Shown here in pieces: positions 3,114 through 38,950 of a stretch of DNA of 64,000 nt. The stretch covers positions 310,001 to 374,000 of the forward strand of contig OZ374565.1 in the NCBI GenBank assembly GCA_977862235.1. Reading direction: 5' to 3'. The DNA is from Dudresnaya verticillata (taxonomy: Eukaryota). A program made the translations under genes and the position numbers. Below the pieces are notes generated by a model. It did not search any database. It worked only from the letters and a program-made list of their open reading frames with translations, and was not told where the DNA came from. The stretch's first letter is position 1, and the number at the start of each line of letters is the position of its first letter.

Positions 3114-3439
3114 GCTCACACCGCGGAAGGGCAAGGCTAAGGTTGATAAGAACAACAGGTCCAAAGACGGTCAGAAAGGCAGTGCTACCGACCGGGGAAA
3201 CTCCGTAAACAATGCAGGGAAGGACCGGGAACGTCCTGCGCCTATTTTTCTAAACGAGGTCTGTGCGAAGAAGTGGAAGCTCCATCCTGGAGGGGTTCGT
3301 AATTGCCCGTTCACCGACCCTGAGAAGGCTGAGGCCGTGATCAAGGAACACATTACCCGCAAGTGAGATAAGGCTGAGGAGGCAAGGCAGGTTCGCTTCG
3401 ACCAACAAGACATTTATGTGAATACTACGCTAATGGGAG

Positions 3440-4113: not shown

Positions 4114-4239
4114 GGGAGCTACATTCGCTGGGCTAGTGGAACGCACGACGTGTGCTGATGGCGTTTCAGACATAAATTTGATGCCGCCAGGACTGTATGC
4201 CACACTTCTAGAGAAGAGAGCAGACATGTCAGTGAAGAC

Positions 4240-8515: not shown

Positions 8516-8530
8516 TGAAGAAGGGGGGTC

Positions 8531-9211
8531 TGTGGTGAAGTGTCCGTTTCGGAGTGCGGACGACGGGCGAGCCGACGTGCGACCGTCGACAACCCGCGCT
8601 CTGCTAAGCGCGCGTCAAAAGCCGAAGCGGGAGTACAGCGACACAGTAGCACTGTATGCCCTGCTGGAGTCTGCGCTCACCACCAATCGGAGCCAAGTAG
8701 TTGATTTATTTGTAATTAGGTAATTGTAATGATGCTGTACAGTACGTAGTGTCAGCCAGCCAATAAGAATGCCGAGCATGTCCGAAACGTTGACCGGGAC
8801 CAGTAGGACCGGACCCACCTGGTGGACCAGACCCATTGGGGTCTGGCCCACACGGACCGGACCGCGGGGCGTATCTCCCAGTATAATAATGGGTGGCCAC
8901 CGCGAGTCCTACAGTAAACGGGTACGCAACCCTGGGCAAAGTGACTCACCCTAAGCCTTACCCTCATACTCCTTTTCGGTTTCCCCTCGCCAGCCCGGTG
9001 CACGGATTCGTCTTACCTCCGTCCCGGCGTAGCTGTCCTGTCACTGTACCGTCCTCCTTGTCCGTTGCGTCCTGTTACTCCTTACAGGTTTTGCCGCTCT
9101 AGGTACTCCCTTCGGTCTACGAACTAAGCTCTACCTCCCCGGTGCCGTGTTAGATCACTCCTTCTTGGGATTGCCTGATCAAATCTCCTTAAAGGTGCGC
9201 CTTTCACTACA
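8531..9211 (+). mobile_element. 3' LTR (681 bp)
   Basis: PPT gaagaagggggg just before TGTGGTGAA, and the end is TTCACTACA. Shares blocks with solo LTR 3440-4113. Confidence 0.82.
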
Positions 9212-18121: not shown

Positions 18122-20188
18122 TTAAGCAAGCTTGAATACCACGCAGTAATTAGGAGAGTTCGAAGTTCCTCGGACACGGAAAATAACTTTCAGGCACTTC
18201 CTGTCAATCCTCTCGAACGGCCGCGGGTCAAAACGATTCGGCACAACCGCGTACTGCCCATAGCGGGAAGATGCCGCAAATAGCTTCCCTTTCGCTCGAG
18301 TCTCCTGGCCATTGGGTTTCACAAATACAGTGCGCAATATTGCAGAGCGCAACACCCCGGGATGCCTCCCATCGAGCAAGTTCACAACAGGCGGTGTGAA
18401 CTTCTTCTTGAATATCGGCTCACCAGGAATCAGAAACGCTGGAATCCCAGTCGGGAATGTATGGAATCGCAGCAAGCAGTGGTAGCTTGCGCTTCTACAT
18501 GCGTCTTTAAGCGGTGCGGGTGTTGGGGCAGCAGCTCCCAAACAAAGATCTCCAGCCAACTTATTCACTTGCGAAGAGAGCACTGCGAATGAAGGTGCAC
18601 GCAGAGCGAAGCTGGGACTTGATGCCAGATCTTCTAGGTACTTTCCGGCCACTCCGTTTCCAATTCCGACAGTAAGAATTGCTATTCCGTGGCTCTTCAC
18701 TGACGCTGATATATTGGTTACCCGAGGAACGGCATTGTCCCTTCCGTCTGTTACCACGACGAGAAGTTTCGTCCCTTTCCTTGGGTGCAGATCATTGAAG
18801 CATGCCTGAACACCAGCAAACATGTTCGTGTATCCAATCGTCCCCTTCAGAGCTGTGATAGCAGGCATGAACTGTTGCAATCTCTGCATAGTCATAGTGC
18901 GGACCGATTTCGCCCGAATATTGAAGGTGTGAGCAGAGTAATAAGCCATAGGACTCCTCAAGGCGACCTGCCTGGAGGTTTCCCGCACAAATTCCTTCTC
19001 CATTTCAAGTTCAGCGGCGCTCATCGATCGACTGTTGTCAATTGCGAAACAAACGTTGTCGACAGGGCAAGGCGTCGGTGATGGCGACACAGATGGGGTG
19101 ACAGAGGTTGATGGGGTGGCAGAGGTTGATGGGGTGGCAGAGGTTGATGGAGTCGGTGATGGCGACCCAGATGGGGTGACAGAGGTTGATGGGGTGGCAG
19201 AGGTTGATGGAGTCGGTGATGGCGACCCAGATGGGATGACCGAGGTTGATGGGGTGACAGACGTTGATGGAGTCGGTGATGGCGACCCAGATGGGATGAC
19301 AGAGGTTGATGGGGTGACAGACGTTGATGGAGTCGGTGATGGCGACCCAGATGGGATGACAGAGGTTGATGGGGTGGCAGACGTTGATGGAGTCGGTGAT
19401 GGCGACCCAGATGGGGTGACAGAGGTTGATGGGGTGGCAGAGGTTGATGAAGTCGGTGATGGCGATACAGATGGGGTGGCAGCGGTTGATGAAGTGGGTG
19501 AGGCAGTTGGTGTAATTGTAGGCGTAGGGCTTGTTGTCGGGCAGGGAGAAGTCATCGAGACTTGGCACGAAGCCTTCGTAGCTTGTTGAATGACAGAAGC
19601 CAAGTTTCCGAACCTTGCGTTGATGTAGAATGCCGGACTGCTGGCAACTTGTTTCAGAAAGGCTTCGCTTATGCCACTGCCGATGCCTATTGTGACAATG
19701 GCAATACCATTCCTAGTCTTCAAGGAATTGGCAAAAGATCGGGTTGACGAAGGATTCCTATCAACTCCATCAGTCAGGACCACAACCACACGGTTTCCGG
19801 CTGTTCCAACAAGCGACCTACAGACTGCTAAGCCACTCGCAATGTTCGTTCCTCCAGCGGTTTGGGTTGTGCTCTGGATTGCATTCTTGAAACTGGAAAT
19901 GCTTGAGGTACTAGTAGACACCGTGCGAGCACCATTTGAAAAAGAAGCTGCGCTGTACCTAACAATTGCCCCTGGGTTTGCAGCAGCAACAGCATCAGCG
20001 AACGATGAAACAAAGCCCTTCTGCTCTAGAAATTGGGGGGAAGTGATCGATCCACTCTCATCCAATGCGAAACACACATGTTGAATGGAACAAGTCGTTG
20101 TCCCCGTTCCGCATGGCGGCGGAGATGCAGCTTTTGCGCTGGAAATGATTCCAAGCAAAACACAGAGCAAAGAAAAGAACGTCTTCAT
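18122..20188 (-). CDS. Secreted protein with two von Willebrand A domains separated by a Ser/Thr/Pro mucin-like linker (688 aa)
   Basis: Signal peptide MKTFFSLLCVLLGII, MIDAS motifs FALDESGS...TN...LTDG and FAIDNSRS...TN...VTDG, and a TPSTS/PSGSPSP repeat linker. The ORF is intact. Confidence 0.92.
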   Translation of the reverse strand: MKTFFSLLCVLLGIISSAKAASPPPCGTGTTTCSIQHVCFALDESGSITSPQFLEQKGFVSSFADAVAAANPGAIVRYSAASFSNGARTVSTSTSSISSFKNAIQSTTQTAGGTNIASGLAVCRSLVGTAGNRVVVVLTDGVDRNPSSTRSFANSLKTRNGIAIVTIGIGSGISEAFLKQVASSPAFYINARFGNLASVIQQATKASCQVSMTSPCPTTSPTPTITPTASPTSSTAATPSVSPSPTSSTSATPSTSVTPSGSPSPTPSTSATPSTSVIPSGSPSPTPSTSVTPSTSVIPSGSPSPTPSTSVTPSTSVIPSGSPSPTPSTSATPSTSVTPSGSPSPTPSTSATPSTSATPSTSVTPSVSPSPTPCPVDNVCFAIDNSRSMSAAELEMEKEFVRETSRQVALRSPMAYYSAHTFNIRAKSVRTMTMQRLQQFMPAITALKGTIGYTNMFAGVQACFNDLHPRKGTKLLVVVTDGRDNAVPRVTNISASVKSHGIAILTVGIGNGVAGKYLEDLASSPSFALRAPSFAVLSSQVNKLAGDLCLGAAAPTPAPLKDACRSASYHCLLRFHTFPTGIPAFLIPGEPIFKKKFTPPVVNLLDGRHPGVLRSAILRTVFVKPNGQETRAKGKLFAASSRYGQYAVVPNRFDPRPFERIDRKCLKVIFRVRGTSNSPNYCVVFKLA
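19072..19500. repeat. Coding minisatellite (60-bp unit built from 18/24-bp subunits) in the vWA gene linker
   Basis: aggttgatggagtcggtgatggcgacccagatggg recurs every 60 nt. The array is 318 bp shorter in copy 2. Confidence 0.95.
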
Positions 20189-22775
20189 GCTACCTCTTAA
20201 ACAGATGGAGAGGTTGCGCTTACGAATTAAATCCCAGAAACGAAGCCAACACTCTGTGTGTCGGCCGATAACAGTCTGAACACTTTCCCTGAAGCCAGAG
20301 CCCCTTGAGTTCAGAAGGGTCTTAGTCTTATATACTGTCTTATTTGAAAGACTTCCCTGATATCTTAGATGTTACGTCGGAGCAGAAGTTTTCACCATCT
20401 ATCGACACATTCAAGACGATAGGTTTATACCGACCACGGGTTTATTTAAAATGTTTATGTACCTAGTCAATCGCCAACGATTTCCTGCTTATTGCAGGTT
20501 TTTCTTAATAGAAGAAACAATGCCAATCGACTAGCGTTCTGCTTGTAACGTCGCCATGCCCCCCTCTGATGCAGGAAACTTGTTCGAAACTGTGAAGTGC
20601 TGCACAGTAAGGCACAGGAAGGTACGTAAAAGCAGCAAATCTACAAAAAATGGTGCCTAGTCTTCCCATGGATTCAGAGAGGTCATTAGATAGACATCTG
20701 CGGGGAAGAGTAAGAAGGACATCCAAGTCTGTATAATAAATTGGCAAAACTGGCAATGCCGTAGTCCATAATTTAGGAAGCTCTTCGAAATGGTGAGGCA
20801 CTGTTATGCATGCACTACATTTACAGGATGTGTAGAATATATAAGAAAGAACGCGGTCGTGGTGCATGAGATAACTCACAAACCTTATTGAAAATGCACA
20901 TTTTACACAATGAGCCTCCAGAGAGACTGGTCACTGAACCAGACTCGTTCATTACTGCAGGGAGGGTCGATGTAGAAAGCGAGAGACCGCGTTGGGGTAT
21001 CTGCCTGATTGTAGCGCGGCATTGCTCACCATCTGTCACAGAGTACAGTACGTCACTATCGCGAGCGCTGATTATTATATCCCGATTTTTTCTGCAATAA
21101 GTATTAAACGTGTTAGAATCCAGAAATGCATCTTTCGCTGCCTGTGGAACAGCAGTACCAAGAGGCAGTCAATCCGATGCATGGCGCTTATGTACAAAAT
21201 GGCACCTCTGATTAAACTGGTAGAAGGCGTTTCTGCTGGGTATATACGTCACTTGCGGCGTAACAGAACTGCATTACCGCACAAATTGAAACCCGAACGG
21301 CGGGGCCTTAAAATAGCTGCTTCAGTACTCCTCGAGATTCATCGACATGACCTATTGCAAACGGAGACCTGATTACAAAACAAGAAAAAAACAACAGGAG
21401 ACTCAACAGGGGCGGGCTCACCCGTCCCCTGTAATTTCATTATTGTATTGAGAGAGACCTTTATTAAAGAACAAGAGTTTATTGTACTGTGTAATCGGCA
21501 GGGGGTCTTCCTAGGACACATCTCTTTTCGCACATAAGCCCATCAATCGACCGTGTGAACGTTAAACAACAAATAAAATACAACAACACATAGAAATTGC
21601 TCTTGTTGCGAAACCAATCGACAGTTTTATAAAATGCTCACCCTTTTCTGCAACATGTCGTTTTAATTCTAATATTATTGCAATCTGTGTCGTTCTGTTG
21701 TCTACACTGCAGGATCGCGTGCTACGGCGTCGGTGGCGTCGAGAGCGGCGCGGCGCATTGTGCGCGGCGCGCGTGAGCGGGGCCGGCGGGGCGAAGGCCG
21801 CGCGCGAGCGACTCGCCGCCATGGTTGCTCGCGGTCGGACGGGGGGAGGGGGCGGGGGGGACGCGCGAGCTGAGCTCGGCACGACGGGCGCGGCGCGAGG
21901 CTGATCTGCGCGTTGGGGCGGGGAGTGAGAGCTCGCGGCGCGGCATCGGCACGAACGGCGCCGCTGCGGTGCGCGGCGCGCGCGCATTGGTCGAGGCGCG
22001 GGGCGATTGGAGTGTTTCTGTGAAGGGTTCTCGCTGCCGCGTTGCACACGTGTATCGAGCGTTTCTTGTGTGACCTGCCATGAAGGCTTCATTGCAGGCA
22101 TCGCGCAGACGCTCCTTGTGCCCACTATGCACTACCACTCTCACAATCCGCGCAAGGTCCGGAATGCTGCAAAGTAGACCTCCGGAAGCATTCCCTCACT
22201 TACAAAACACCGGCACCCTCCGCGGCACCGCCTTCCTTTCGTTCACAGCACTTTCGATACCACCCCAATTCCACTTTTGTTAGTCGACAACTTCGCGTGC
22301 TTCCATGCTCCTCATTCCGCAGCCTGCTCAACCTAGTTCTATCACTCGGATCGACCATCTCATTCTTCAAACGTTCACCGAGGCAATAAAGTTGACAAAT
22401 TCTCTCGAGTTCCTATTTTCAATACTACCCATGGGAAGCAAAACAATATCACTCCCATAAAGAGAGTCGCGAGATTTAGCTTTGCACCGCAGTAACCGTA
22501 GGCCCCTTCATTGTTCAATGCCAATTAACTCCAACAAAGGGCATGATGACCAACCTTAGTGGTCTTTCCATCATTTCCATTCAGAAAAATCCATACCATA
22601 AGAATCCCCTCGACAGAGCTGCTCGCTCCCTTGTGCTTGTGCTACCTCATATCAACTCCCCATCCGATCCGACCCTGTAGCAACCTCCAACGTTTCCCGC
22701 ATGTTCCTCGGCTGCAAGGGCTCGTCACTGAAAAAAGAAACGGACTACCTTGCTTGACATAACTCTGCATCGATA

Positions 22776-24980: not shown

Positions 24981-25590
24981 TGTTACACATAGCGCTCGCA
25001 CTGTTTGGGAGTACTCCCTACAATGGGATCCCAAAGCGCACACGCGACGCTGCAGGGTAATTCCCTAGAATGGGAGCCTGCTGGGGAACGCACTGCTGAA
25101 CAATGGCAGACCCCACGGCCGATCATGGCTATCGCGCACAGACCTGGTGAACCTGCACAAGGCAGAACTGCCGGTCTGACAAGGCGAATTTGCGTCCCTT
25201 CGGACAACCCTCTACATCTTATTGGCTAACGCTCAGGGTCCCCTGACAACAGGGTTCAGACCTGAATGACTTTCCGTCCGTCCCCGACCCACTGTGGGAC
25301 GGCGGGTGTGAACACATCCACCTGTTCAGGTCTATCTGACTTGGAGCGGATCCCGCGAGCATGCGGGCCACAAATACTGTGGGTCGCTTTGAGCCGTCCG
25401 GCTGTAGAAATAATAAAGCCAGCACGCTGGCGTCGAACGACGAAGACGAGGGACAACACACCACTCCTCATCCACGCCGTGACTTTGCCCTCCACTTTGC
25501 CAACCCCAACTTTCTCTCTACCGACCTTTTACTTTTCCTTTTCGCGTTCGCGATCTACTGCTTCGAAGGCAAAAGCGGTTACGCGTCACA
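24981..25590 (+). repeat. 5' LTR (610 bp)
   Basis: TGTTACAC...GCGTCACA, about 8 differences from 38341-38950. Confidence 0.95.
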
Positions 25591-25674
25591 GTAATTACTT
25601 TTCCCCGGAGTAGTTTCGTTTTTGTTGACGAAGCGAGATTGTGTTCACGGTGACCAGCACTAGGAGTGCTACGA

Positions 25675-28508
25675 ATGGATCCAATGCCCAAGATTCATGC
25701 ACAAAATCCGTGTCCGTCAGACGATCGTCGAAACGGTGGAAGCGAAGGCTGATAGGACTGTCAACGGCTGACTTCGTCTTGTTCAAGCACGATCGCGAGA
25801 TCTATGAACGACGAGTCGCTGAGAAGAATTCGGATCCGAATGTTAAGATCCAGCTTACGACCTACAAGGACTCTATTCTACCTGCTGTGCTGGAGATCTT
25901 CGCACTAGGTGACTGGGTTCCGATGGACACCGTTGATGACACCTGTAGTAGAATGGCTTTGAAGCCAACAGAGACGGCGACACGGCACGACAGCTGTCCT
26001 CAAAGAGCGATCCCACTCGCGTGGTTGGTAGCTCGGTAAAGGGGTGGTAGAGACTTGAAAGGGCTTAAAGCCCTAACAAAGGAAAAAGGGATAGGCGAAC
26101 CCTGCTGAATAGAGCAATTCGTCGTAGACGACAGGGCTTGTAGACGCCCAAAGGGAAGTTGTAGCGGTAGCACCGTAAGCGTCCAAAAAGGGGAAAACCC
26201 AAGGCACAGACCGCTGCCGGTTTAGTGCCGGGCCCCTGCTACTCAGGGGCCCCATAAATACAGCGAGAGCCGAAAAGTGCTCCTCGCTCAGTTAGAGCTC
26301 TATGGCTAATACTTAGCTAATACTGTACAATACAGGTACGATATATCCTTAGATAGGAATGAGTGGTCAGGCCACAAGGCCCGCGCGGCGCCACTGTCAG
26401 GCGCCGTGCGGCAAACATCCGCCAGCAATGCATGGCGCGATGGTGCGGCCATGGTTAATCCCCAAATGGCACAGGGCCATATTATCTGGAGCAGTGTGCC
26501 CTACAGATCAACTCTGTACACGTGTTGCCTTACAGCGCAGGAGCGTTCCAGCAATGAAATCAATCGGAGCACCAGCCATGTCATCCGGGCAGTTGTGCGC
26601 CCGTCATTCCTTACAGAGGACTCGTGTCCACGTGGCTCCTTACAGGGCGTCAACGCCCGTTGTACCACAACATCACGGAGAACAATCTTGAGGACTGTGT
26701 GGCCAAGCAGGCTGTAGTTAATCCTGATGATTATGATCTTGGAAAGCTCGATGATTCCCTCAATGACTAGAAGCTCGGACGAGCGGATAGTGAACACAAC
26801 CTAGAAGCCCAAGTTTAGCAGCTGATCTTTGAATACACCAAGATCTTACAGAACTGTGGTTACAATAAGTTTGCCGAACGGCACCCGAAGCTTGCCGTGG
26901 AGCACATACTGAAGCGTATCACTCACCCGTTCCTGAAGAACCGCATGATCATGACTGCGCGTCTGAAGAAGGACGAGGACTTTCAGAATAACTTCAAAGT
27001 TTTCGTACGAGAACTCGCGAAGGAGGCGCGGCTGATCGACCGCATGAACGCCGCCAAGAAATACAAAGCGCCCGCTACCGCTTTCGACAAGTTTGCTACT
27101 CGTGTTGCGGATGATCCGCCGCCGACGGCGCCATACCGATCGGGTAGTTCCGGTTCCGGACGTAAGAATAAGAACCGTTGTAATAAAGGTGGTGCATCTG
27201 GCAGTACTGCAGAAGATGGGAACCACAATCAAGACAAACCGTTCGGTGGTAACGATGGCAGAGGTAAACACTTTCGCGAACCTCCCTATTGTCTCAACCC
27301 AAAGTGCGACAAGCGCCATTGGGTTGATGACTGTGAAATAACTGCGGACGCAGAGAAGAAACGTCTCAAGGATGAGTGCCGTGCGCGTTCGCAAGCGCGC
27401 AAGTGATCGAAGCAGGACTCAGAGAAGCGAGAAAACATCGGATCTGTAGAACTACCTACCGAAGGAGAACACACTTCAATGTTCTCAGCCTCATTCTGTT
27501 CAGGTGCTGTAGAGGTGTCCGCCTTAACCGATCAAGGTTCGGATGCTAATCTAATTTCACCATCAGTACTGAAGGAGATCTTACAGGCTGACCCAGATGT
27601 TCGAGTTGTGACTCTACCAAAGAAGCTGGAGTTCTCCAATGCTCATTCTTCTGCGGTGAAGATCACGTGCAGCAGGCAAGTATCCGCTGACGTAATGCTA
27701 CGCGTACGCCATGGTACGAACCTCATGTTGCGAGGAATGAAGTGGCTGGTCACAAACGCTGCAGTACAGCACGTTTATGTCGGACGACATGTTCTCGCGT
27801 CTATAGGGTTGAACAACCGTGTCATGCTCGAGTTCGCGGCTGATAGATTCGGAGGAGTCGTCGACGTCCCAGAAGTTCTTCATAAGGATGGGAGTGGCGA
27901 CAATCCTTGCGCCGACGCCGGTGCGTCTATCCATGGAATCCTTCGCGAACGCGGTTTGGATTTCGGAAGCACCTTCCACAGCAAAGGGGGTGCTGAGGAC
28001 GATCAACTCGAAGACAGTAACGTCTACGTCGATCTTGGCGAGGACTCGCCGGATGATTTGAAACAGGCGATCGCCGCAATGGTCGAAGACGCTCGCAACA
28101 ATGGACTGAGCGATACCGGAGCCGAACGGCTGACCTCTATCCTGGACAGGTACCCGGTTTTCGGATTCGGCTGGGCAAATCCCAACCAGTCGACGTTCCG
28201 CCAATGAGGGTACGACGTCAACAAGGATACCGACCGGTACGTTTGAAAGCAAGGAGATACTCCGGTGAACAAAGGAACTTCCTGAACGCGCGCGTCGTAC
28301 GCGTACGTGGATCGGCTCAAGGAGATGGAATTTTCGAGGAGATGACAACCGCCGAATGGCAAGCGGCACCTCTCCTTGTGCCGAAGCCTGGTTCCAGAGC
28401 TGGGTATCGTATGACCGTGGACCTTCGCCCGGTCAATGGCGCGACAATCAAAGAGTCGTGGCCAATGCCTCATCTGGACAGCGAGGTGTATGATTTCTCA
28501 GGGAGCAC
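25675..28508 (+). pseudogene. gag, protease and N-terminal RT of the Ty3/gypsy element
   Basis: Gag with PYCLNPKCDKRHWVDDC knuckle, protease ALTDQGSDANLI, and RT start APLLVPKPG..YRMTVDLRPVN..WPMP. Interrupted by a solo LTR, stops and frameshifts. Confidence 0.9.
25944..26669 (-). mobile_element. Solo LTR (726 bp) inserted in gag
   Basis: TGTAGTA...TACCACA with TSD acacc/acatc. Removing it restores gag reading VDDITENNLEDC. Confidence 0.88.
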
Positions 28509-29347
28509 TGTGGTGCAAGGGAAGGGCTGCCCCTTTTTCGCTGTGAGCGTATTATATGCCAACGTCTACCGACGGCACGTCGACCGCCGTTGGCGCGCGA
28601 ACACGTCATGGACGGTTGGCCCACGGGCATACGGCCGCCGTTACCCGGCGCGGCGCACGCGCCCACTGTACGGCCAGATCCAGATGCACGATCCGGATCG
28701 GCCAGGCGCAAGGCGCACGCCTGTAAGCCTGGCCCGGATCCGGATCGGATCCGGATGGGACATCGGGATCCGGCATCGGGATCCACAGTGATGTAAGGAG
28801 CGCGTCTGTAATGGCCGCGCGCCAGCAATGCTGGTAGGGATCTGGATCCGAATCCGGATCACCCACAATGCTACACGCATGCGCCTATAAGCTACTCCTG
28901 AGCTCCCGCGCGCGCGGCTGCATGGCGACGACGACGTGTCAGACACTCGACGACGCGACACGCGTCCTGAGTCCCCGCGCACCGCGCCTGCCGCCGTCAC
29001 TCACGTAGTATATGAGGTAATCCGTCTGAGACGCTGAGTAAATCCCGGACAAGCCGGCCTTGGTCCAGACTTCCCCGTTCCGCACGCGCGTACCCTACCG
29101 CTGCCTACGGCTAAGCGTCTACCTCCCGTGCTTCTACGTCTACCATCGTCCTTGACGTGCTCCCTTTCTGTTTCCTTTCCCCTTCCTTCACACCTTCCGC
29201 CTCGGGCGTCTACAGTCCGCCCAAGGCGTGCCCCTTTTGCTCTACCAACAACTCGCCCACGGCGGGACCACCTACCGCCAAGGGCGCAGCTACCCACCGA
29301 GCCCCGCACTGCTCGGCGGTCTATCGTCTCGGACGTTTTGCACCACA
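28509..29347 (+). repeat. LTR A (839 bp) followed by a primer-binding site
   Basis: TGTGGTGCAA...TTGCACCACA, then TGGTCTCCCGACC at 29350. Confidence 0.8.
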
Positions 29348-29551
29348 TCTGGTCTCCCGACCTAAAATTGTGCTACGTTTCAACGAGTTACTCCGTCGTG
29401 CGACGTCCGACTCTTCGTCTTCAGACTTTTGTCGCTAATCGTCCACGACGTTCAAGCAACTCTACGATTGTATCATGGCCTCACGACCGCCGCCGTCGAG
29501 AGGCCCAAGTTCAAGAAGACCGTCTTCGACGCCAGGGAGTGTACCCGCGTC

Positions 29552-30426
29552 ACAAGCGCCCTCGGAATGCAGCCGCGCGCCTGACACATTTGCCCACGCC
29601 ACCGCGCGCGCCGCGCTAATGCTTACACCTACACGTGTTCACACACCGCGCTTACAGACTCTTGGTCCCATTGTCCTCCGCTGCCCTGTGACACGTGCCA
29701 CGTGTGCAAGTATGCCACGGGGCGCAGCAGCGTGACCCAGTAACTACACCTCACGCGTTCTCTCAACCCGACATTGCCGTCACTATCCGCTGTGAGCGGG
29801 AGGTCTGGTTCTTGACCAAGTTGCCCGACAAAGTCGAATGACTGTGTCAGGCGCGCGGCTGCATTCCGAGGGCGCTTGTCACACGCACGACGGAACGACA
29901 CGTGTCCTGAGTTCCCGCGCGCCGCAGCGCCACCGCCGTCGCCCACGCAGCAGTAGTAATACTTAGGTAACCCGTCTAGGACGTCCCAGTAAACCCCGGC
30001 AAGCCGGTATGCCTTCACACTTCGCCCCTTCGCTCGTTAGCGTCACTGCCGCTACCGACGTTGGCTACGCGTTGCGACGATCGCGCTTCCGCGTCAATGT
30101 CCGTCTTTGACGTGTATCCCCTTTTGTTTTCCCCCTTTATGGCCTTGGTAGCCGAATGCCCCTTCCCGCTAGTGTGTGCGTCGCCACCGCTTCCGTTAGG
30201 CAAAGCGTCGGTACCACCGTCCCTCCACGTGCAACACCGTCGTTGACGTGTTTCCATTTCCGTCTTGTCTCGTTTCTTTGGTTTCGATCTACCTACCGCC
30301 CAGGGAGTTTACAGTCCGCCTTGTGGCGTTGTCCATGCTCTACCACCCCTACCGTCTCTGACGTGCTACCCGCCGGGTCTCGAACTGCTCGGGCGTGCTT
30401 TTCCGTCCTAGACGTTTTGCACCACA
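29552..30426 (+). repeat. Rearranged 5' LTR B (U3 part inverted) followed by a primer-binding site
   Basis: 29552-29843 is the reverse complement of 34334-34625, and 29844-30426 is a direct copy of 34590-35171. TGGTCTCCCGACC at 30428. Confidence 0.85.
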
Positions 30427-30919
30427 TTGGTCTCCCGACCTAGAAAGTGCTACGTTTCTACGAACTGCAACGTCGTGCGACGACCGATCAACCGCTTTCA
30501 AAGCGTTTCGCTACTCGTCCACGACATTTTTCTACATTTTTGAGAATACTGTGGGTTCGTCCCGACCATCACTGTCTCCTGGGTCCTCTTCAAGGCGCCC
30601 GTCATGGACGATTGGCAGTGAGCCATCGTTCGAATGGTCAAGACGCATGACGATGAAGTCGGAATACCGTGTCCGCCCCGTGTTTGCTTCGGCTCTCCCG
30701 GCTATGCCGATACGCGACGTTTCCGACCGTTCGCCTAACAGGGGATCGTTATATCCCCTGCCGAACGTGTCGTCATCCGTATTTCCGCCTCTGGCGAGTC
30801 TGCCCTCCGTGCATCCGAGCGCTCAAGTTCAAGTCGAACAATAGAGCGTCGATGACGGAGCTCAAGCCGGCTTGGCCGAGGATCCACTGGATATTGTGAT
30901 TCCGGACACCCATCCCACC

Positions 30920-33435
30920 AAAAACGTCGTTGACGTTCAAGACCGCAGTACGCACCAATACGTCTTTGACGATTCATCGGTTCGACAGAGTCGGTGTAAC
31001 ACTTACCCGTCTTGAGACGTTGGAAAAATATCGAAATCGGGCCCTCCGGGGTCTCCACTTGGTTGTTGATCGTTGTTGACGTTCTGCACGCGACTTCGCG
31101 TTCCATGCCCGGCGTGCCGCTTTGCACCGTCACAGACGATTCATTCGCATGGTTACTCACGACATGTGGACCATGTTGCCTTTTCCGTCACGGACGATCA
31201 CCGATGCGTAGTCAGCCGCACTATCTCGCTTAAGCGATTGATACCGTCATCGACGCTTGGAACGCGACCAACCGTCTCATGGCGCATTTTAGCGTCAAAG
31301 ACGATTCTTGGATCGTGGTTACTCACGCCATACTGTGTTTTCCATCATCGACGATTGCAGACTCGTGATCACCCGATCCCTCTTGCGGTATATCGTCGTC
31401 GACGTCGAGTACACAGAAGCCTGGCACATGTGGTTTCCTTATCGTCATGGACGTTTCATGCCACGATAATATCGGTGCCATGCTGCTCTCTACCGTCACC
31501 GACGATTCCCGCTCTGCTGCAACCGGCCTATTGCCTTGATATCCCGTCAATAACGTTTCGCCGTATTCGCTTTGCGACATGTTGCTTTTTACCGTCATTG
31601 ACGTTTCCTGCTCTTCAGTCGCGCGGTGAAGCCCACGCAACGTCGCTTTATACCGTCACTGACGCTTTGCAGCACTTGGTACCCGTGGTCACAAGCAAAG
31701 ACAGCTTCGTATCGTCTTCGACGTTTCGTATCGTCATCGACGTTCTAGTGCATTCGGTCAGCCACTTAGTGCGATATAGCACCGTCGTCGACGTTCTCCG
31801 GCTCGTGGTCATCCGAAACGTGCCGTTTCCTGTCGTCATCGACGTTTCGTATCGTCATTGACGTTTTGGTGCGGGTCGCGGCTCGCACACGGCTCGCACA
31901 ACCCTGTGCTATGCCGAAATACGCCGTCACAGACGTTCTGCCGTTGCGCGTTCACTCGCAGCACACAGAGACGTTTCCCGGCTTGCGAATCACCGCGCCA
32001 TGCCAGCTCAATACCGTCATAGACGTTTTCCCGGCTCGCGGTAACCCGTGCAGTGCCATTTGGTGCCGTCGTCGACGTGCTCAGGCTCGCGGTCTCCGGC
32101 AACGGCGTCTTCGAATCGTCATCGACGTTTTGTATCGCTATTGACGTTTTAGTGCACGCGGTTGCCCTCCTCGAGCCACACCTCACCGTTGTCGACGTCT
32201 TAAGGATCGCGGCACCCGCAAAGTGCTGCTTCATACCGTCATCGACGTTGCGTGTCGTCATTGACGTTACGTGCACGCGATCACACGCGAACTGCCAAGT
32301 TTACCGTCACAGACGTTTGCAGACTCACGGACAGCTGCCATGTGCCGCTTCGTACCGTCATTTCACAGTCATGGACGTTTTGGTACTCGGGGTCAACCGC
32401 ATGTGCCGCCTCGTGCCGTTACCGACGTTGAATATCGTCATTGACGTTTTGTTGTACTCGGTAACCCATGCCGTTCCACTTCGTACCGTCATGGACGTCT
32501 CATATCCTCATCGACGTTTTTAGTAGGGGCAGGCTCCTAACACGGCCGCTCAATATCGTCATCGACGTTGCATACCGTCATTGACATTTTGGTCAACGCG
32601 GTCACTCTTGTCGACCCCTTTTGCAACGTTGTCGACGCTCAATAGCGTCATTGACGTTTGGGACACGTGGTTACCTCCACTGTGCACCTTTTCACCGTCG
32701 TCGACGTTTGAACGTTCGTGGTCCACCCGGTCACCCGCCACAGCTGCTTCTTATCGTCATCGACACTCAATGTCGTCATCGACGTTTTGGGGCACGCGCT
32801 TACCTGCGAAGTGCCCCGTTTCACCGTCATCGACGTTGGCACGTTCGTGGTCACCCTGAACGAGCCGCTTCGTATCGTGATAGACGTTGCATATCGTCAT
32901 TGACGTTTTCGTTCTCGGGTAAGCAGAAATGTGCCGAATCTTATCGTTATCGACGTTACATATCGTCATTGACGTTTGAGGCCACACGGTGATCCGCCGC
33001 GGCCGCTTTGCATCGTCATTGACGTTTTCCGGCTGAGGCGCACTCGCGCCCTGCCGCGCTATATCGTCCGAGACGCTTCCGGGCTGGCGCACAACTGCGC
33101 CATCCCAGGATATACCGTCTCAGACGTTTTCTGGCTGGCGCACACCCGCGCCATGCCGCGCTATATCGTCCTAGACGCTTCCCGGCTGGCGCACACCTGC
33201 GCCATCCCAGGATATGCCGTCTCAGACGTTTTCTGGCTGGCGCACACCCGCGCCATGCCGCGCTATATCGTCCTAGACGCTTCCCGGCTGGCGCACACCT
33301 GCGCCATCCCAGGATATACCGTCTCAGACGTTTTCCGGATGGCGCACACCCGCGCCATGCCGCACAATATCGTCACAGACGTTTTCCGGCTGGGCCGCAC
33401 CCGCGCCATGCCGCGCCATATCGTCAAAGACGCAA
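30920..33435. repeat. Array of ~55 palindromic CGTC-N3-GACG(TT) motifs, mostly at ~50-51 bp and 19 bp spacing, grading into a homogeneous 51-bp tandem repeat (33040-33435)
   Basis: Examples are atcgtcatcgacgtt, accgtcacagacgtt and atcgtcattgacgtt. Intervening sequence is divergent except in the last ~8 units. Confidence 0.9.
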
Positions 33436-33529
33436 CCGCACGCATTAGCGTTTTTCATACCATCCCTGACGATCACGCCCGCCGATGGCGGTTCACTGCA
33501 CGCCGCGCCGAACGTAAGAGCCCCCGACG

Positions 33530-33900
33530 CATGACTGGTGCGCTCCGCCTTACAGACGAATGGCCTGTGCACAAGGAAATCAAGCGCTAATTGGTGCGCT
33601 TCAGCTTACACCCAAATTGGATGGTGATTGGTGCGCTTCGCCCCGCGCGCAAATTGGACACTCATTGGTGCGCTTGAGCTTACAGGCACGTGACCTGTGC
33701 GCCAGGAAATTGAACGCCCATTGGTGCGCTTCGCCTTACACCCAAATTGCGCGCTCATTGGTGCGCTTCGCGCTGCACGCAAATTGGACGTTGATTGGTG
33801 CGCTTGGGCTTACAGGCACGTGACCTGCGCACACCCAAATTGAGCGCTCATTGGTGCGCTTCACGCCGCACGCAAATTGAACGCTGATTGGTGCGCTTCT
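33530..33900. repeat. Nine ATTGGTGCGCT motifs in a 37/37/56-bp higher-order repeat
   Basis: Copies near 33534, 33589, 33627, 33664, 33720, 33757, 33794, 33850 and 33887. Confidence 0.88.
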
Positions 33901-34187
33901 GCATGCCGTCAAAATTTATCGTTTATTTATGCGCGTGGACGCCCGGCTACTGCGCAGCGCTGGTAGCCGCCCTACACGGGGATAACCGTCTTGGACGTTC
34001 TACCACCGGTGACCTCGGAGCCCTGGGCACACCGCTACTAGTGAATTGCTCAAGTCGTCTTATGACGGGAAACTCGGCAACGCCGCACGTCCTTGAGGGG
34101 AATGGAAGTGACATAACCACGGCACGGCCGGTAATAATACGTTCCTCACGAATTTGCTTCGCGTGTTCGCGTTTTGGAAGGGGGCCA

Positions 34188-35171
34188 TATGGTGCAAATT
34201 ATCCAACGCCGCTGGCGCTCTGTACCGTCCTAGACGGATAGCTCCCGTCTTTGACGTTTCTACCGCCTTTGGGGACTGGGATTGAGCTCGAGGCGCGAAC
34301 CCGCTCGTGATCCCTGTTTCCGCCGATGGCGCTAGTCATTCGACTTTGTCGGGCAACTTGGTCAAGAACCAGACCTCCCGCTCACAGCGGATAGTGACGG
34401 CAATGTCGGGTTGAGAGAACGCGTGAGGTGTAGTTACTGGGTCACGCTGCTGCGACCCGTGGCATACTTGCACACGTGGCACGTGTCACAGGGCAGCGGA
34501 GGACAATGGGACCAAGAGTCTGTAACCGCGGTGCGTGAACACGTGTAGGTGTAAGCATTAGCGCGGCGCGCGCGGTGGCGTGGGCAAACGTGTCAGGCGC
34601 GCGGCTGCATTCCGAGGGCGCTTGTCACACGCACGACGGAACGACACGTGTCCTGAGTTCCCGCGCGCCGCAGCGCCACCGCCGTCGCCCACGCAGCAGT
34701 AGTAATACTTAGATAACCCGTCTAGGACGTCCCAGTAAACCCCGGCAAGCCGGTATGCCTTCACACTTCGCCCCTTCGCTCGTTAGCGTCACTGCCGCTA
34801 CCGACGTTGGCTACGCGTTGCGACGATCGCGCTTCCGCGTCAATGTCCGTCTTTGACGTGTATCCCCTTTTGTTTCCCCCTTTATGGCCTTGGTAGCCGA
34901 ATGCCCCTTCCCGCTAGTGTGTGCGTCGCCACCGCTTCCGTTAGGCAAAGCGTCGGTACCACCGTCCCTCCACGTGCAACACCGTCGTTGACGTGTTTCC
35001 ATTTCCGTCTTGTCTCGTTTCTTTGGTTTCGATCTACCTACCGCCCAGGGAGTTTACAGTCCGCCTTGTGGCGTTGTCCATGCTCTACCACCCCTACCGT
35101 CTCTGACGTGCTACCCGCCGGGTCTCGAACTGCCCGGGCATGTTTTTCCGTCCTAGACGTTTTGCACCACA
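34188..35171 (+). repeat. 3' LTR B (~984 bp)
   Basis: PPT ggaaggggg, then TATGGTGCAAA (TG mutated) ... TTTGCACCACA. Confidence 0.75.
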
Positions 35172-35606
35172 TCTGACACGTCGTCGTCGCCATGCAGCCG
35201 CGCGCGCGGGAGCTCAGGAGTAGCTTACAGGCGCATGCGTGTAGCATTGTGGGTGATCCGGATTCGGATCCAGATCCCTACCAGCATTGCTGGCGCGCGG
35301 CCATTACAGGCGCGCTCCTTACATCACTGTGGATCCCGATGCCGGATCCCGATGTCCCATCCGGATCCGATCCGGATCCGGGCCAGGCTTACAGGCGTGC
35401 GCCTTGCGCCTGGCCGATCCGGATCGTGCATCTGGATCTGGCCGTACAGTGGGCGCGTGCGCCGCGCCGGGTAACGGCGGCCGTATGCCCGTGGGCCAAC
35501 CGTCCATGACGTGTTCGCTCGCCAACGGCGGTCGACGTGCCGTCAGTAGACGTTGGTATATAATACGCTCACAGAGAAAAAGGGGCAGCCCTCCCCTTGC
35601 ACTACA

Positions 35607-38300
35607 AGCACGTGTTTCGCCTCCCTGGATTTCGTGTCGGGTTATTGGCAGCTTCCACCGCATCCCGATTCCTACACCGCGTGTGGCGTCATCACACCGC
35701 GCGGGGTAATGATATCAAAACGCGTGTTGGATGATCTGGCGAACGCCCTGGCTTTTTCCAGAGCTCGGTCGAGCCTCTATTCGCCAGCCTGCGTGATTTT
35801 CTGAAGGCATGGCTGGACGATTTCAGCCTTCACGCCCCATCCCAGGAGATTCTTTTGGACAATCTCGAGATTTTTCTCTGCATTTGTAAGGAGAAGAGAT
35901 TGTGGCTTTCCGCACGGAAATGCAAACTCTTTCGCAAGAAACTTCGCTGGTACGGTCGCATTGTGTCTGGAGAAGGGTACACACTCGACCCCACACGTCT
36001 TTCGGGTTTGCAAGAAATGGGAACCCCGAAGACTGCGGAAGAACTTGCGCAGTTCATCTACTGCTATCGCTGGATGTCGCTCGCCATCCCCGACTTCGCG
36101 CGCCGCATCGCGCCGCTCAACAACATCTGGGAAGAGGCGTACGCCAAATCTGGAAGCGTACGAAGAGATCTATCCGCACGATCGCGCTCAGTAACCTGTC
36201 TTGGGGGTCCCCGCATGAGAAGGCCTTTCTCGATCTTCAAGACAGCCTACGGACCGCTGTCACCCTCTCTTATCCGGATCCGGACAAAGCTATTTGCGTA
36301 TTCACCGATGCGTCCGAACGGTTCTGGTCTGTCGTTGCCACGCAGTGCGACGAATTAGATCTGAAGAAGCCGGTCGGCGAACAGAAGCATGAACCCCTCG
36401 CATTTTTGGGTTCCCAGTTTACAGGCGCATCGTTGAACTGGTATACCTTCGAGAAAGAAGGATTCGCGGTGTTCCAGACCTTTGAGAAACTCGACTACAT
36501 GCTGCTTGGTCACGCGCGTACTCACGCGTTCACGGATCATCGAAATCTAATGTTCGTGTTCGCACCTCTTGCGCTGGAACCAGCTCTTGGAAGGCACATT
36601 GTCTCAAAAGTTCAACGTTGGGCTCTGTACTTGTCCAAGTTCAGCTACGTCATTGAGCACATCAAGGGAGAAGAAAATGTGTTTGCAGATATTCTTACTC
36701 GCTGGGTCAAGGGCTACCGCAACGAGAAGTCAATGCTATGCAGCGTTATACTCGGAGAAGCTGAACAGCTCATCCCTGCCGCCGACGCAATTGTCTGGCC
36801 GGATATCGAAGTGATTCGCGACTCACAAGCGTCTCACACACGCACTGAAGGAGTTCTCCTTGACGAGGATGACAGATTGTGGAAGAAAAGAAATCTCTTC
36901 TAGATTCCGAAGGAGGACCTCGAACTCAAGCTCACAGTAATTGTGTGTTCACACTGTGGTACAATCGGACACCGAGGTATGGATGCAACCAAGAGCATCA
37001 TACTCGAGAACTTTTGGTGGGAGACCAAGAAGGAGGATGTCGACGAGTTGGCTCGCGGATGCCTACACTGCATCGTAACTCGTACGGGGGAGATCGTCCC
37101 GAGACCGCTCGGACACGCTCTGCACGGCGAACGCCCTAATGAAGTTGTCCACGCCGATTTCCTTTCCATGGGTCAAGGTGTGGACGAGAAGAAATACGTC
37201 CTCATCATACGGGACGACTTGTCCTCGTAAATCTGGCTTTGGCCAACAGACGAGGCGGACGCCAACGCTGCCGCTGCTGTCCTGAACTCCTGGGTTGGCA
37301 GCTTTAGTTCTATGGATTGGCTGGTCAGCGATCAGGGCTCCCATTTCAAGAACAAACTACGCAAGGAGATGGTGGAAGAACTGCGTTCGCAACATCATTT
37401 CACCACGGCTTATTCTCCGTGGGCGAACGGTTCCGTCGAGAGAGTTTGCCGCGAAGTCCTTCGTGCGTGCCGCGCGCTGCTCAGCGAATGGAAGCTATCG
37501 CCGAAGGATTGGCCTACAGTAACCGAGTAGAACATCATCAATCAAGCTCCGCTTCGGAAGCTCGGCTTCGCGACGTGGAAGTGCCAGGTGTACACCGCAC
37601 TCCGCTCGAGGTCTTCACAGGACATCGATCTGTGCGTCCTCTACTGAGAGCCTTACCGAAGAACAAGTACCGGTCGGCCAAAACAATCGAAGAGCTACGC
37701 GCACGCGCGCTTCTAAACATTGATCAACTCCAGGATGCGTTGTTCAACGTTCATCGAGATGTGAAAGAGATCTCAAGTGCTGCGCGGAAGAGAAAGGTTG
37801 ACCAACACAACAAGCGCACGAACGTTCACCGCGCTAACTTCATCGAAGGCGACTTTGTCCTCGTTCATCGCGCTCAGCCCGGTGGACACATGCTGAAATT
37901 GGTTTGGCGAGGACCTCGCCGCGTCACACAAGTCCGTTCGGAATGGGTCTTCGAGATACAGAACCTCATAACGGACAAAAGGGAAGTGGTGCACGCGCGC
38001 CGCTTACACCTTTACCGCTCGGATATGGATGGCAAGGAAGTCCTTCCTGCACTGCTTAAAGCTGCGGAGCACTCCGAGACAAGCTACCAGATTGCCGAAC
38101 AAATACGCGGCATCAGCGAAGTTGATGGGAACTCCAGATTCACTTGGAGTGGAGTGGGCTCCCCGATGAGGTCGACTGGACCTGGGAAACCTTTCGCCAA
38201 GTCTTCGAGGACATGCCTGGACTGCTCGAAGATTTTCTCCACACTGCCGGGACCCGCAGTCTCAAACGACGCGCGCTCGCGCAATGCAATTTCTCGTAAC
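35607..38300 (+). pseudogene. RT C-terminal part, RNase H, integrase and chromodomain of the Ty3/gypsy element
   Basis: LDFVSGYWQ and AWLDD; RNase H FTDAS, EKEGFAV, TDHRNL, NVFADILTR; integrase H-x5-H...CLHC, HADF, SDQGSHF, NGSVER; chromo-like LEWSGLPDEVDWTWE. Several stops and frameshifts. Confidence 0.93.
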
Positions 38301-38340
38301 CAAGCTTCTTTGTTCACGCTGAACAGAAGCTTGGGGGCAC

Positions 38341-38950
38341 TGTTACACATAGCGCTCGCACTGTTTGGGAGCACTCCCTACAATGGGATCCCAAAGCGCA
38401 CACGCGACGCTGCAGGGTAATTCCCTAGAATGGGAGCCTGCTGGGGAACGCACTGCTGAACAATGGCAGACCCCACGGCCGATCATGGCTATCGCGCACA
38501 GACCTGGTGAACCTGCACAAGGCAGAACTGCCGGTCTGACAAGGCGAATTTGCGTCCCTTCGGACAACCCTCTACATCTTATTGGCTAACTCTCAGGGTC
38601 CCCTAACAACAGGATTCAGACCTGAATGACTTTCCGTCCGTCCCCGACCCTCTGTGGGACGGCGGGTGTGAACACATCCACCTGTTCAGGTCTATCTGAC
38701 TTGGAGCGGATCCCGCGAGCATGCGGGCCACAAATACTGTGGGTCGCTTTGAGCCGTCCGGCTGTAGAAATAATAAAGGCAGCACGCTGGCGTCGAACGA
38801 CGACGACGAGGGACAACACACCACTCCTCATCCACGCCGTGACTTTGCCTTCCACTTTGCCAACCCCAACTTTCTCTCTACCGACCTTTTACTTTTCCTT
38901 TTCGCGTTCGCGATCTACTGCTTCGAAGGCAAAAGCGGTTACGCGTCACA
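38341..38950 (+). repeat. 3' LTR (610 bp)
   Basis: Direct repeat of 24981-25590, preceded by ttgggggcac. Confidence 0.95.

What the first reader, a model, noticed from the sequence alone, without database searches (positions are those of the whole stretch)
30920..33435. Repeat-spacer array of ~55 conserved palindromes filling a non-coding LTR element
Seen: the internal region between PBS and PPT has no gag/pol. It carries about 55 copies of (A)YCGTC-N3-GACG(TT), mostly spaced ~50-51 nt apart with frequent 19-nt doublets. The ~35-nt intervals are highly divergent over 2.1 kb, while the last ~8 units form a homogeneous 51-bp (102-bp dimer) tandem repeat. The motif is CpG-rich yet is the only part retained. 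Inference: a tandem array that grows at one end, with selection keeping only the palindrome and its spacing. This could be a multivalent site for a dimeric DNA-binding protein (anti-silencing or centromere-like), or short RNA hairpins used for packaging or processing. The layout is CRISPR-like, but no cas genes are present.
Basis: partly seen in the sequence, partly recalled or inferred. Interest (0 to 1): 0.85.

Follow-up and report, generated by a model that had tools for sequence, protein, structure and literature searches.

The report
Mini-hairpin array in seaweed retrotransposon
A nearly protein-less jumping gene in a red seaweed carries about 55 regularly spaced copies of an 11-letter mirror-image motif, plus 30 scattered copies whose paired letters change together, so the motif likely folds into a tiny hairpin that would act as a repeated docking site on the element's RNA.

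Summary
The array is real: 53 sites within one mismatch of CGTC-N3-GACG (41 exact) at 30925-33432, mostly 48-52 or 19 nt apart. It lies in a non-autonomous LTR retrotransposon (tRNA-Tyr-type PBS, PPT, 984-bp LTR) of a florideophyte red alga. Spacers are diverged copies of one 51-bp unit, not captured DNA, so it is not CRISPR-like. The motif is under selection: 39 of 40 arm bases are kept between two subfamilies (background 73%). New here: outside the array the motif is CG-x-C-NNN-G-x'-CG with x:x' Watson-Crick paired in 30 of 35 sites (T-A 16, C-G 9, G-C 4, A-T 1), with a strict 3-nt loop, an unpaired flank and a fixed polarity. That is what a 4-bp triloop hairpin on a single strand would give, and not one dimer reading two free half-sites. 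Best reading (0.5): repeated protein-docking hairpins on the element's RNA, likely for a helper's Gag. Main rival (0.25): double-stranded sites for several dimeric regulators. Closest known: Sirevirus palindromic repeated motifs and Retand/Ogre internal arrays. No family copies, partner protein or expression data could be obtained. New variant of a known kind.

The parts
30925..33432 (+). Array of 54 CGTC-N3-GACG sites (41 exact) plus 2 decayed slots; 5' block 30925-31700 oldest, middle block 31700-33010 with 70-bp (51+19) units, 3' block 33014-33432 young 51/102-bp tandem
28504..28508 (+). 5-bp target-site duplication AGCAC, left copy (right copy 35607-35611); the 7.1-kb insert 28509-35606 interrupts the RT region of a Gypsy element
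   Evidence: RVT_1 and RNase H matches right of the insert
28509..29347 (+). LTR of a second, diverged subfamily (TGTGGTGCAA...TTGCACCACA); 9 paired sites, 4 T-type and 5 C-type
29350..29362 (+). Primer-binding site of subfamily 2
   Evidence: complement of a tRNA-Tyr-type 3' end
29475..29550 (+). Start of a reading frame of subfamily 2, cut at 29550; probably the gag N-terminus; holds one motif copy (29521)
   Evidence: 15 of 24 residues shared with subfamily 1, 10 of them through synonymous changes, p=0.001
29551..29843 (-). Inverted copy of part of the subfamily-1 U3 (34334-34626)
   Evidence: 5 differences in 293 nt
29845..30426 (+). Truncated 5' LTR of subfamily 1 (3' 582 bp only), 5 exact motif copies
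   Evidence: 4 substitutions against 34591-35171
30428..30440 (+). Primer-binding site TGGTCTCCCGACC of subfamily 1
30551..30844 (+). Short coding remnant of subfamily 1 (97 codons, lacks the start codon seen in subfamily 2); no homologue found
33590..33898 (+). Second array: ATTGGTGCGCTT, 8 copies 37 or 56 nt apart, in a 130-bp higher-order repeat
34176..34184 (+). Polypurine tract GGAAGGGGG, 3 nt before the 3' LTR
34188..35171 (+). Full 3' LTR of subfamily 1, 984 bp, 11-bp near-perfect terminal inverted repeat; 10 paired sites (T, C and A types)
35172..35606 (-). Inverted copy of the left 435 bp of the subfamily-2 LTR; forms the right end of the insert
   Evidence: 98% identical

Best explanation
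The array is an amplified cis-signal of a non-autonomous LTR retrotransposon, and each motif likely folds, on the single-stranded element RNA, into a 4-bp hairpin with a 3-nt loop (5'-Y-CG-x-C-NNN-G-x'-CG) that would be read by a protein of an autonomous helper, most likely Gag. Shown: the element anatomy, selection on the motif, paired change at x:x', the strict 3-nt loop, the unpaired and asymmetric flank, reuse of the same spacings in LTRs and array, and the origin of the array by tandem duplication. Inferred: that the structure forms on RNA rather than on single-stranded cDNA, that a protein reads three fixed pairs plus the shape, and that many copies give the parasite RNA an avidity advantage in packaging. 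The array probably grew in bursts by template switching or unequal exchange (mechanism proposed for Ogre arrays in PMC7004042, passages read).
For: Covariation: among 35 non-redundant CG.C-N3-G.CG sites outside the array, x:x' is Watson-Crick in 30 (T-A 16, C-G 9, G-C 4, A-T 1; column shuffle mean 12.1, 0 of 100000 reach 30); outside the insert only 9 of 24. T, C and G classes each exceed dinucleotide shuffles (16, 9, 4 against 0.2-0.3; none of 1000 shuffles reached them; A class not significant). Hybrids CGCC..GACG and CGTC..GGCG: 0 in the insert. One orthologous site changed on both sides between subfamilies (29276 C-type, 30353 T-type). Loop length: 30 paired sites at N3, 5 at N4, at most 3 at any other length 0-9. 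The next pair out is avoided (2 of 30, p=0.009; in the array 1 of 54, shuffle mean 5.3, p=0.006), so this is no general palindrome-perfecting process. Polarity: pyrimidine at -1 in 26 of 30 but purine at +11 in 11 of 30 (Fisher p=1e-4), which a symmetric dimer would not need. Sites of different type are neighbours at the same 19-22 nt spacing as the array doublets (7 of 27 gaps, 1.0 expected, p=5e-5). Copies sit in U3, U5 side, leader, the coding remnant and the 3' region, all parts of a genomic RNA. Selection.
Against: The predicted probability of the local hairpin in 260-nt context is only 0.15 (8 of 53 sites above 0.5) and the isolated hairpin is weak (-2.5 to -3.8 kcal/mol), so it needs a protein or a partner strand. 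G-U wobbles give no strand signal (7 on plus, 8 on minus) and are almost absent at x:x' (1 case), unusual for an RNA stem. The array itself shows no covariation (41 of 43 paired sites T-type). Of 9 subfamily-2 sites in alignable regions, 5 keep their type (one with a mismatch), 1 is compensated, 1 has a 4-nt loop, 1 has a broken arm and 1 falls in an indel. Sites of one type may share ancestry, so the counts are not independent events. Array spacings fall near multiples of 10 nt (p=0.016), which suits double-stranded DNA. No transcript, partner protein or further family copy was seen.
Confidence: 0.5

Rival explanations
1. Double-stranded DNA sites for dimeric regulators (enhancer or anti-silencing, as argued for Sirevirus repeated motifs and shown for VANC and TnpA). 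To fit the covariation, several homodimers with different preference at x (T, C, G) would have to act, for example regulators of different helper subfamilies.
For: Invariant arms around a free 3-nt centre (17 different triplets in 54 sites); strict spacing (63 at N3 against at most 6 at other lengths); spacings near multiples of 10 nt; presence in U3; a second array containing the CCAAT word on the minus strand (NF-Y label recalled, untested); few G-U intermediates. Precedent: density-dependent motif arrays built by tandem repeat formation (PMC5735166; 10.64898/2026.08.24.746577).
Against: Needs three proteins whose sites are intermixed at one spacing; does not explain the one-sided flank or the avoided -1/+11 pair; no regulator gene found in the insert; the VANC motif is not described as a palindrome (0 hits for 'palindrom' in PMC5735166).
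Confidence: 0.25
2. Structure without a specific protein, or on cDNA: the self-complementary motifs pair between copies (4 bp + 3x3 loop + 4 bp) to compact or dimerise the RNA, or fold on the single-stranded minus-strand cDNA during reverse transcription.
For: Same covariation; a duplex of two identical 15-mers is predicted at about -12 kcal/mol against about -2.5 for one hairpin; motif arms are predicted mostly paired with something (unpaired 0.13); scarcity of G-U suits DNA.
Against: Pairing alone does not explain why three of four pairs never covary, why the gap is strictly 3 nt, or why extension of the stem is avoided.
Confidence: 0.15
3. Neutral minisatellite decay, with or without palindrome-correcting mutation.
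For: The array is of tandem origin, with homologous spacers and an age gradient; such arrays are common in plant LTR elements (PMC11963269).
Against: 32 of 45 old sites are exact where 0.8-11.4 of 50 slots are expected at spacer identities of 0.41-0.70; 50 of 53 GACG words have their partner arm exactly 3 nt upstream; 39 of 40 arm bases kept between subfamilies; no correction of the flanking pair, nor of like sites outside the insert.
Confidence: 0.04
4. Relic of a coding repeat (51 nt = 17 codons; the motif reads V-x-D in one frame, and 7 of 14 variants hit that valine's third position).
For: Period divisible by 3; asymmetric variants; an open frame over the young block.
Against: 28 of 53 intervals are not multiples of 3; spacer differences show no third-position excess; third positions C0 and C9 are 98-100% fixed; the copy inside the real coding remnant is in another frame.
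Confidence: 0.02
5. CRISPR-like array of captured spacers.
For: Superficial repeat-spacer layout.
Against: Spacers are homologous to each other; no 16-mer of the array occurs elsewhere in the window; no match in phage or plasmid collections; no Rfam family reaches its threshold; no cas-type Pfam match among 54 larger ORFs scanned.
Confidence: 0.01

Closest known systems
Sirevirus repeated motifs (RMs) of plant Ty1/copia elements (PMC2829016, passages and sections 9 and 19 read; PMC4728375, abstract and sections 9 and 16 read)
   Same: Short CG-rich palindromes in high copy number (8-32 per element) in the LTR and in a non-coding internal region, conserved while flanks diverge, function unproven. 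By my reading of Table 3, 8 of 13 RM cores are also 11-nt 4-3-4 palindromes starting and ending with CG, and the Sorghum core CGGC-N3-GCCG equals the G-type here.
   Different: Core is CGxC/Gx'CG, not CGG-CCG; variants covary within one element; 73 non-redundant paired copies with a regular 51/19-nt period; PBS is tRNA-Tyr type, not Met; no multiple PPTs; red alga; no pol, so the superfamily is unknown. RMs were read as transcription-factor sites or sources of long hairpins.
[quoted passage not shown]
   Same: Family-specific tandem arrays before the 3' LTR, units 8-100 bp, up to 85 copies; pol-deleted Ogre copies bring gag next to the array, as here; function stated as unknown.
   Different: In the passages read, no motif kept against spacer decay and no covariation is described; no TRP28-type antisense ORF here.
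VANC and TnpA target-motif arrays of Arabidopsis DNA transposons (PMC5735166, passages; 10.64898/2026.08.24.746577, abstract and passages)
   Same: A short motif multiplied by tandem repeat formation in non-coding parts of a transposon, in one orientation and at high density.
   Different: Those are non-palindromic double-stranded DNA sites in DNA transposons that encode the binding protein; here a retroelement, a covarying palindrome and no known protein.
LARDs, large non-autonomous LTR retrotransposons (definition from PMC4558846, passage read)
   Same: Over 4 kb, with LTRs, PBS and PPT, and without intact coding capacity.
   Different: Keeps a short coding remnant; lies in a chimeric insert of two subfamilies with inverted ends; copy number unknown.
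Dispersed packaging-signal stem-loops of RNA and reverse-transcribing viruses (MS2, STNV, hepatitis B; recalled, and named in AI notes; no paper read)
   Same: Many small, individually weak stem-loops that act by avidity on a capsid protein: the working model for this element.
   Different: There the loop usually carries the specificity; here the loop is free and the stem is fixed. Binding is untested.

Membership tests
Non-autonomous LTR retrotransposon (LARD type) | Long terminal direct repeats with TG...CA ends | tested here: met
   3' LTR 34188-35171 ends in CA with an 11-bp near-perfect terminal inverted repeat (its first two bases read TA; the subfamily-2 LTR has TG); 582 bp repeated at 29845-30426 at 99%. 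The 5' copy is truncated.
Non-autonomous LTR retrotransposon (LARD type) | PBS complementary to a tRNA 3' end just inside the 5' LTR | tested here: met
   TGGTCTCCCGACC 1-2 nt after both LTR ends; 2 of 5 viral matches to the complementary pattern are intron-containing tRNAs with anticodon GTA ending GGTCGGGAGA. The host's own tRNA was not available.
Non-autonomous LTR retrotransposon (LARD type) | Polypurine tract next to the 3' LTR | tested here: met
   GGAAGGGGG at 34176, 3 nt before 34188
Non-autonomous LTR retrotransposon (LARD type) | No intact gag/pol; over 4 kb | tested here: met
   No Pfam match at cut-off in insert ORFs of 60 aa or more between 29350 and 34600; 29845-35171 spans 5.3 kb; only a 97-codon remnant
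Non-autonomous LTR retrotransposon (LARD type) | Target-site duplication around the LTR pair; dispersed family copies | tested here: inconclusive
   The 5-bp TSD bounds the whole chimeric insert, not the LTR pair; no genome was held to count copies
Sirevirus | RM core CGG-CCG | tested here: not met
   Core is CGxC-N3-Gx'CG; only the G-type (4 of 30 non-array sites) has CGG-CCG
Sirevirus | Met-tRNA PBS TATCAGAGC and CA/ATTGG junction | tested here: not met
Sirevirus | Multiple identical PPTs before the 3' LTR | tested here: not met
   Only two different purine runs of 8 nt or more in the internal region
Sirevirus | Ty1/copia RT phylogeny | not testable with these tools
   The element has no RT and no autonomous partner was found
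VANC/TnpA-type anti-silencing array | Short motif at high density, one orientation, multiplied by tandem repeats | tested here: met
   (8.9 exact sites per kb in the insert, 0-0.3 in other retroelements of the window)
VANC/TnpA-type anti-silencing array | Element-encoded DNA-binding protein that removes methylation | not testable with these tools
   No such gene in the insert; no methylation or binding data
CRISPR array | Unique spacers unrelated to each other, acquired from foreign DNA | tested here: not met
CRISPR array | cas genes nearby; known repeat family | tested here: not met
Repeated packaging-signal hairpins | Base pairing kept by compensatory change | tested here: met
   (one of four pairs covaries; the others are invariant)
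Repeated packaging-signal hairpins | Strand specificity (G-U bias on the sense strand) | tested here: inconclusive
   7 against 8; polarity of flanks is fixed
Repeated packaging-signal hairpins | Binding by Gag or capsid protein and effect on packaging | not testable with these tools
   No partner protein, no RNA data (one search listed no run)

The most novel reading that the evidence does not exclude
A parasitic LTR element has multiplied a stem-specific triloop hairpin to more than 70 copies as a beads-on-a-string packaging code that out-competes its helper for Gag; and because most Sirevirus repeated motifs have the same CG-bounded 4-3-4 geometry, those plant motifs, long read as transcription-factor sites, would be the same kind of single-strand signal. 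That would give a function to the unexplained internal arrays of LTR retrotransposons across red algae and plants.
Probability: 0.25. Interest if true: 0.85.

Novelty: new variant of a known kind. Interest (0 to 1): 0.62.

Why it matters
Tandem arrays and repeated palindromes inside LTR retrotransposons are widespread, and their function is stated as unknown (PMC11963269; PMC2829016). This element offers a sharply defined case: three fixed pairs, one freely exchangeable pair, a free 3-nt loop and a forbidden flank pair. These rules predict which single and double changes should kill or keep binding, and so separate an RNA hairpin from a DNA site in one experiment. If the hairpin reading holds, it shows how non-autonomous elements can win packaging by multiplying a small signal, and it invites a re-reading of Sirevirus motifs.

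Tried and rejected
No whole genome was held. The sequencing-run search listed none (no evidence either way), so no reads were laid. The LTR-end+PBS pattern gave 1 chance hit in a bacterial gene and 0 viral hits; the doublet pattern gave 0. A viral scan with the host Gypsy RNase H gave 2 distant loci (25-27%), not followed up. The coding remnant has no homologue; the single hit is a bacterial HYR-repeat protein, judged chance. Longer hairpins in the spacers: present in the young units (z -0.6 to -5.1) and weakly in old ones (mean z -0.68, 33 spacers); a left/right chimera test gave p=0.007, but p=0.13 after composition correction, and RNAalifold found no consensus pair in 25 units, so I read them as inherited, not as shown to be selected. 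Rfam: 3 weak sub-threshold hits. The bacterial promoter/terminator scan was at chance level. CpG-deamination explanation of the variants: not supported, no CpG depletion. Resemblance to the I-CreI site and to gammaretroviral GACG tetraloops (both recalled) was set aside: different spacing, and GACG is stem here, not loop. Earlier-findings look-ups by place and by sequence were empty. The Chondrus genome paper was not held.
Full report
Setting. The window comes from a florideophyte red alga: the RRP5 C-terminal piece is 59% identical to Chondrus crispus and 56% to Gracilaria domingensis, against about 41% or less for named fungi and Galdieria. No genome was held and no sequencing run was listed, so all tests rest on the window. 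Bases 1-23115 are repeated at 41203-64000 at 99.1-99.7%.

Anatomy. A Gypsy element (LTRs 24981-25590 and 38341-38950, 8 differences in 610 nt) is interrupted in its RT region by a 7.1-kb insert, 28509-35606, flanked by the 5-bp duplication AGCAC. The insert is a chimera of two subfamilies of one LTR family. In order: an 839-bp LTR of subfamily 2 with its PBS and 200 bp of internal sequence; an inverted 293-bp piece of the subfamily-1 U3; the last 582 bp of the subfamily-1 5' LTR; PBS; a 97-codon coding remnant; the array; a second array (ATTGGTGCGCTT, 8 copies); PPT; the full 984-bp 3' LTR; and an inverted copy of the left 435 bp of the subfamily-2 LTR. The duplicated parts differ by 0.7-2.1%, so they are not assembly copies, and the insert is about as old as its host. 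The PBS is the complement of the 3' end of tRNA-Tyr-type genes (2 of 5 viral pattern hits). The frame after the PBS shows synonymous bias between subfamilies (15 of 24 residues shared, differences 8/6/15 by codon position, p=0.001); gag N-terminus is my inference, as no homologue was found.

The array. There are 53 sites within one mismatch of CGTC-N3-GACG, 41 exact, and 56 slots counting three more decayed ones. Of 53 intervals, 31 are 48-52 nt and 11 are 19 nt. Spacers descend from one unit: 10 old 40-nt spacers are 41% identical against 26% (maximum 31%) in 1000 shuffles. Gapped identity is 0.37 in the 5' block (7 spacers, null 0.31), 0.48 in the middle (16, null 0.33) and 0.80 in the 8 young units. 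The middle block has a 70-bp higher-order period. So the array grew by tandem duplication in bursts, youngest at the 3' end.

Selection on the motif. In the old part 32 of 45 sites are exact; a neutral star model tuned to spacer identities of 0.41-0.70 expects 0.8-11.4 of 50 slots. Defining slots by one arm only, 50 of 53 GACG words have CGTC (at most one mismatch) exactly 3 nt upstream. Between the two subfamilies, 39 of 40 arm bases at five orthologous sites are kept, against 7 of 15 centre bases and 398 of 545 background bases (Fisher p=1e-4; 161 of 501 random windows keep 7 of 8). Those five were the exact T-type sites of subfamily 2; the wider set of 9 gives 5 kept, 1 compensated, 1 with a 4-nt loop, 1 broken, 1 in an indel. 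The array is not coding: 28 of 53 intervals shift frame and spacer differences show no third-position excess.

The decisive observation. The subfamily alignment paired CGCC-AAG-GGCG (29276) with CGTC-TCT-GACG (30353). Counting all CG.C-N3-G.CG sites in the insert gave T-A 63, C-G 10, G-C 5, A-T 3, 13 unpaired, and no CGCC..GACG or CGTC..GGCG hybrid. In the non-redundant, non-array 3271 nt, 30 of 35 sites are paired (shuffle mean 12.1, 0 of 100000), against 9 of 24 in 34 kb outside the insert; the other three pairs do not covary but are fixed. T, C and G types each beat 1000 dinucleotide shuffles; the 3-nt gap is strict (30 sites, against 5 at 4 nt and at most 3 otherwise). The next pair out is avoided (2 of 30, p=0.009; 1 of 54 in the array, p=0.006), and the flank is one-sided (pyrimidine at -1 in 26 of 30, purine at +11 in 11 of 30). 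Outside the array, sites of different type follow each other at 19-22 nt in 7 of 27 gaps (1.0 expected) and at 19-22 or 48-52 nt in 10 of 27 (2.0 expected): the array repeats a spacing grammar already present in the LTR.

How it most likely works. A homodimer on double-stranded DNA reads each half on its own and should accept hybrids; like sites outside the element show no palindrome correction. Intrastrand pairing explains the covariation directly. Four-base arms are too short for a cruciform (general knowledge), which leaves the genomic RNA or the single-stranded cDNA. Fixed identity of three pairs, strict loop length and an unpaired base point to a protein that reads sequence and shape. For an element that must borrow all its proteins, the simplest gain from 70 or more weak sites is avidity for the helper's Gag. 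I give this 0.5. Against it: the local hairpin has a predicted probability of only 0.15 in context and an energy of -2.5 to -3.8 kcal/mol alone; wobbles give no strand signal (7 against 8) and are nearly absent at x:x'; the array itself is of one type; sites may share ancestry; spacings near multiples of 10 nt (p=0.016) suit DNA. Several type-specific DNA-binding dimers remain possible (0.25), as does pairing between copies or folding on cDNA (0.15).

Comparison with what is known. Sirevirus repeated motifs are the nearest case: palindromic, 8-32 per element, in LTR and internal linker, conserved amid divergent flanks, function unproven (PMC2829016). By my reading of its Table 3, 8 of 13 cores share the CG-bounded 4-3-4 layout. 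The element fails the Sirevirus tests for core, PBS and multiple PPTs, so it resembles them without being one. Palindrome regions of maize Sireviruses form long hairpins and attract siRNAs (PMC4728375). Retand and Ogre carry tandem arrays before the 3' LTR, of unknown function (PMC11963269; PMC7004042). VANC and TnpA arrays are the proven case of motif multiplication for a protein, on DNA. Chondrus encodes Dicer-like and Argonaute (review PMC12026948, passage), so silencing pressure is plausible but untested. Searches for this motif or for such an array in red algae found nothing relevant in the listings; none of my 10 searches asked for hairpin packaging arrays in retrotransposons, and no supplement was read, so absence from print is not established. 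AI notes of this scan describe repeated covarying hairpins in other LTR elements; I saw them after and did not test them.

Verdict. It is a selected, structure-constrained motif array in a non-autonomous LTR retrotransposon: a new variant of a known kind, with an unusually clear and testable rule set. Interest 0.62.

Noticed in passing
window 28509-35606: The insert ends in 435-bp inverted repeats made of two left (U3) LTR ends and has a clean 5-bp target duplication: an LTR-family chimera integrated like an inverted-repeat transposon. Two of its three internal junctions fall at the same homologous LTR position (about 28943 and 34626-34631). Aberrant reverse transcription, or a mobile unit of its own; one copy cannot tell.
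   Followed up: partly
window 33532-33938: Second motif array: ATTGGTGCGCTT invariant in 8 of 8 copies, with AAAT fixed 10-13 nt upstream, spacing 37/37/56. It contains CCAAT on the minus strand (NF-Y label recalled, untested).
   Followed up: partly
window 29475-29550 and 30551-30844: Short Ser/Pro/Arg-rich reading frame after the PBS with synonymous bias between subfamilies; no homologue in three protein collections.
   Followed up: yes
window 1-23115 and 41203-64000: 41.2-kb tandem duplication at 99.1-99.7% that includes RRP5 and a two-VWA-domain gene; real duplication or uncollapsed haplotype.
   Followed up: no
window 11105-16323 (-): RRP5 is split over several frames in both copies (introns, frameshifts or sequence errors).
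   Followed up: no
window 18122-20371 (-) and 59325-61256 (-): Protein with two VWA domains around a Ser/Thr/Pro repeat; the two copies differ in repeat number (749 against 643 codons, stop to stop).
   Followed up: no
window 24981-38950: The host Gypsy has no matching target duplication and no TGG-type PBS after its 5' LTR.
   Followed up: no
window 2500-9200: A further degraded retroelement (RVT_1 match at 5715-6143); it has no copy of the motif.
   Followed up: no
window 29393-29409 and 30471-30485: A CGTCG-TG-CGACG palindrome (4-nt-loop version of the motif) is kept just after the PBS in both subfamilies.
   Followed up: no
L005:3001-3111 and L025:10001-10111: A 61.8-kb viral contig has five 25-bp tandem units holding TATCGTCCACGACGTT, the same extended word as the array; no other similarity, probably chance.
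   Followed up: partly
L079:2288-2800: A GC-rich metagenome contig has ten CGTC-N3-GACG sites 51-53 nt apart in two oppositely oriented blocks; unrelated by blastn.
   Followed up: no
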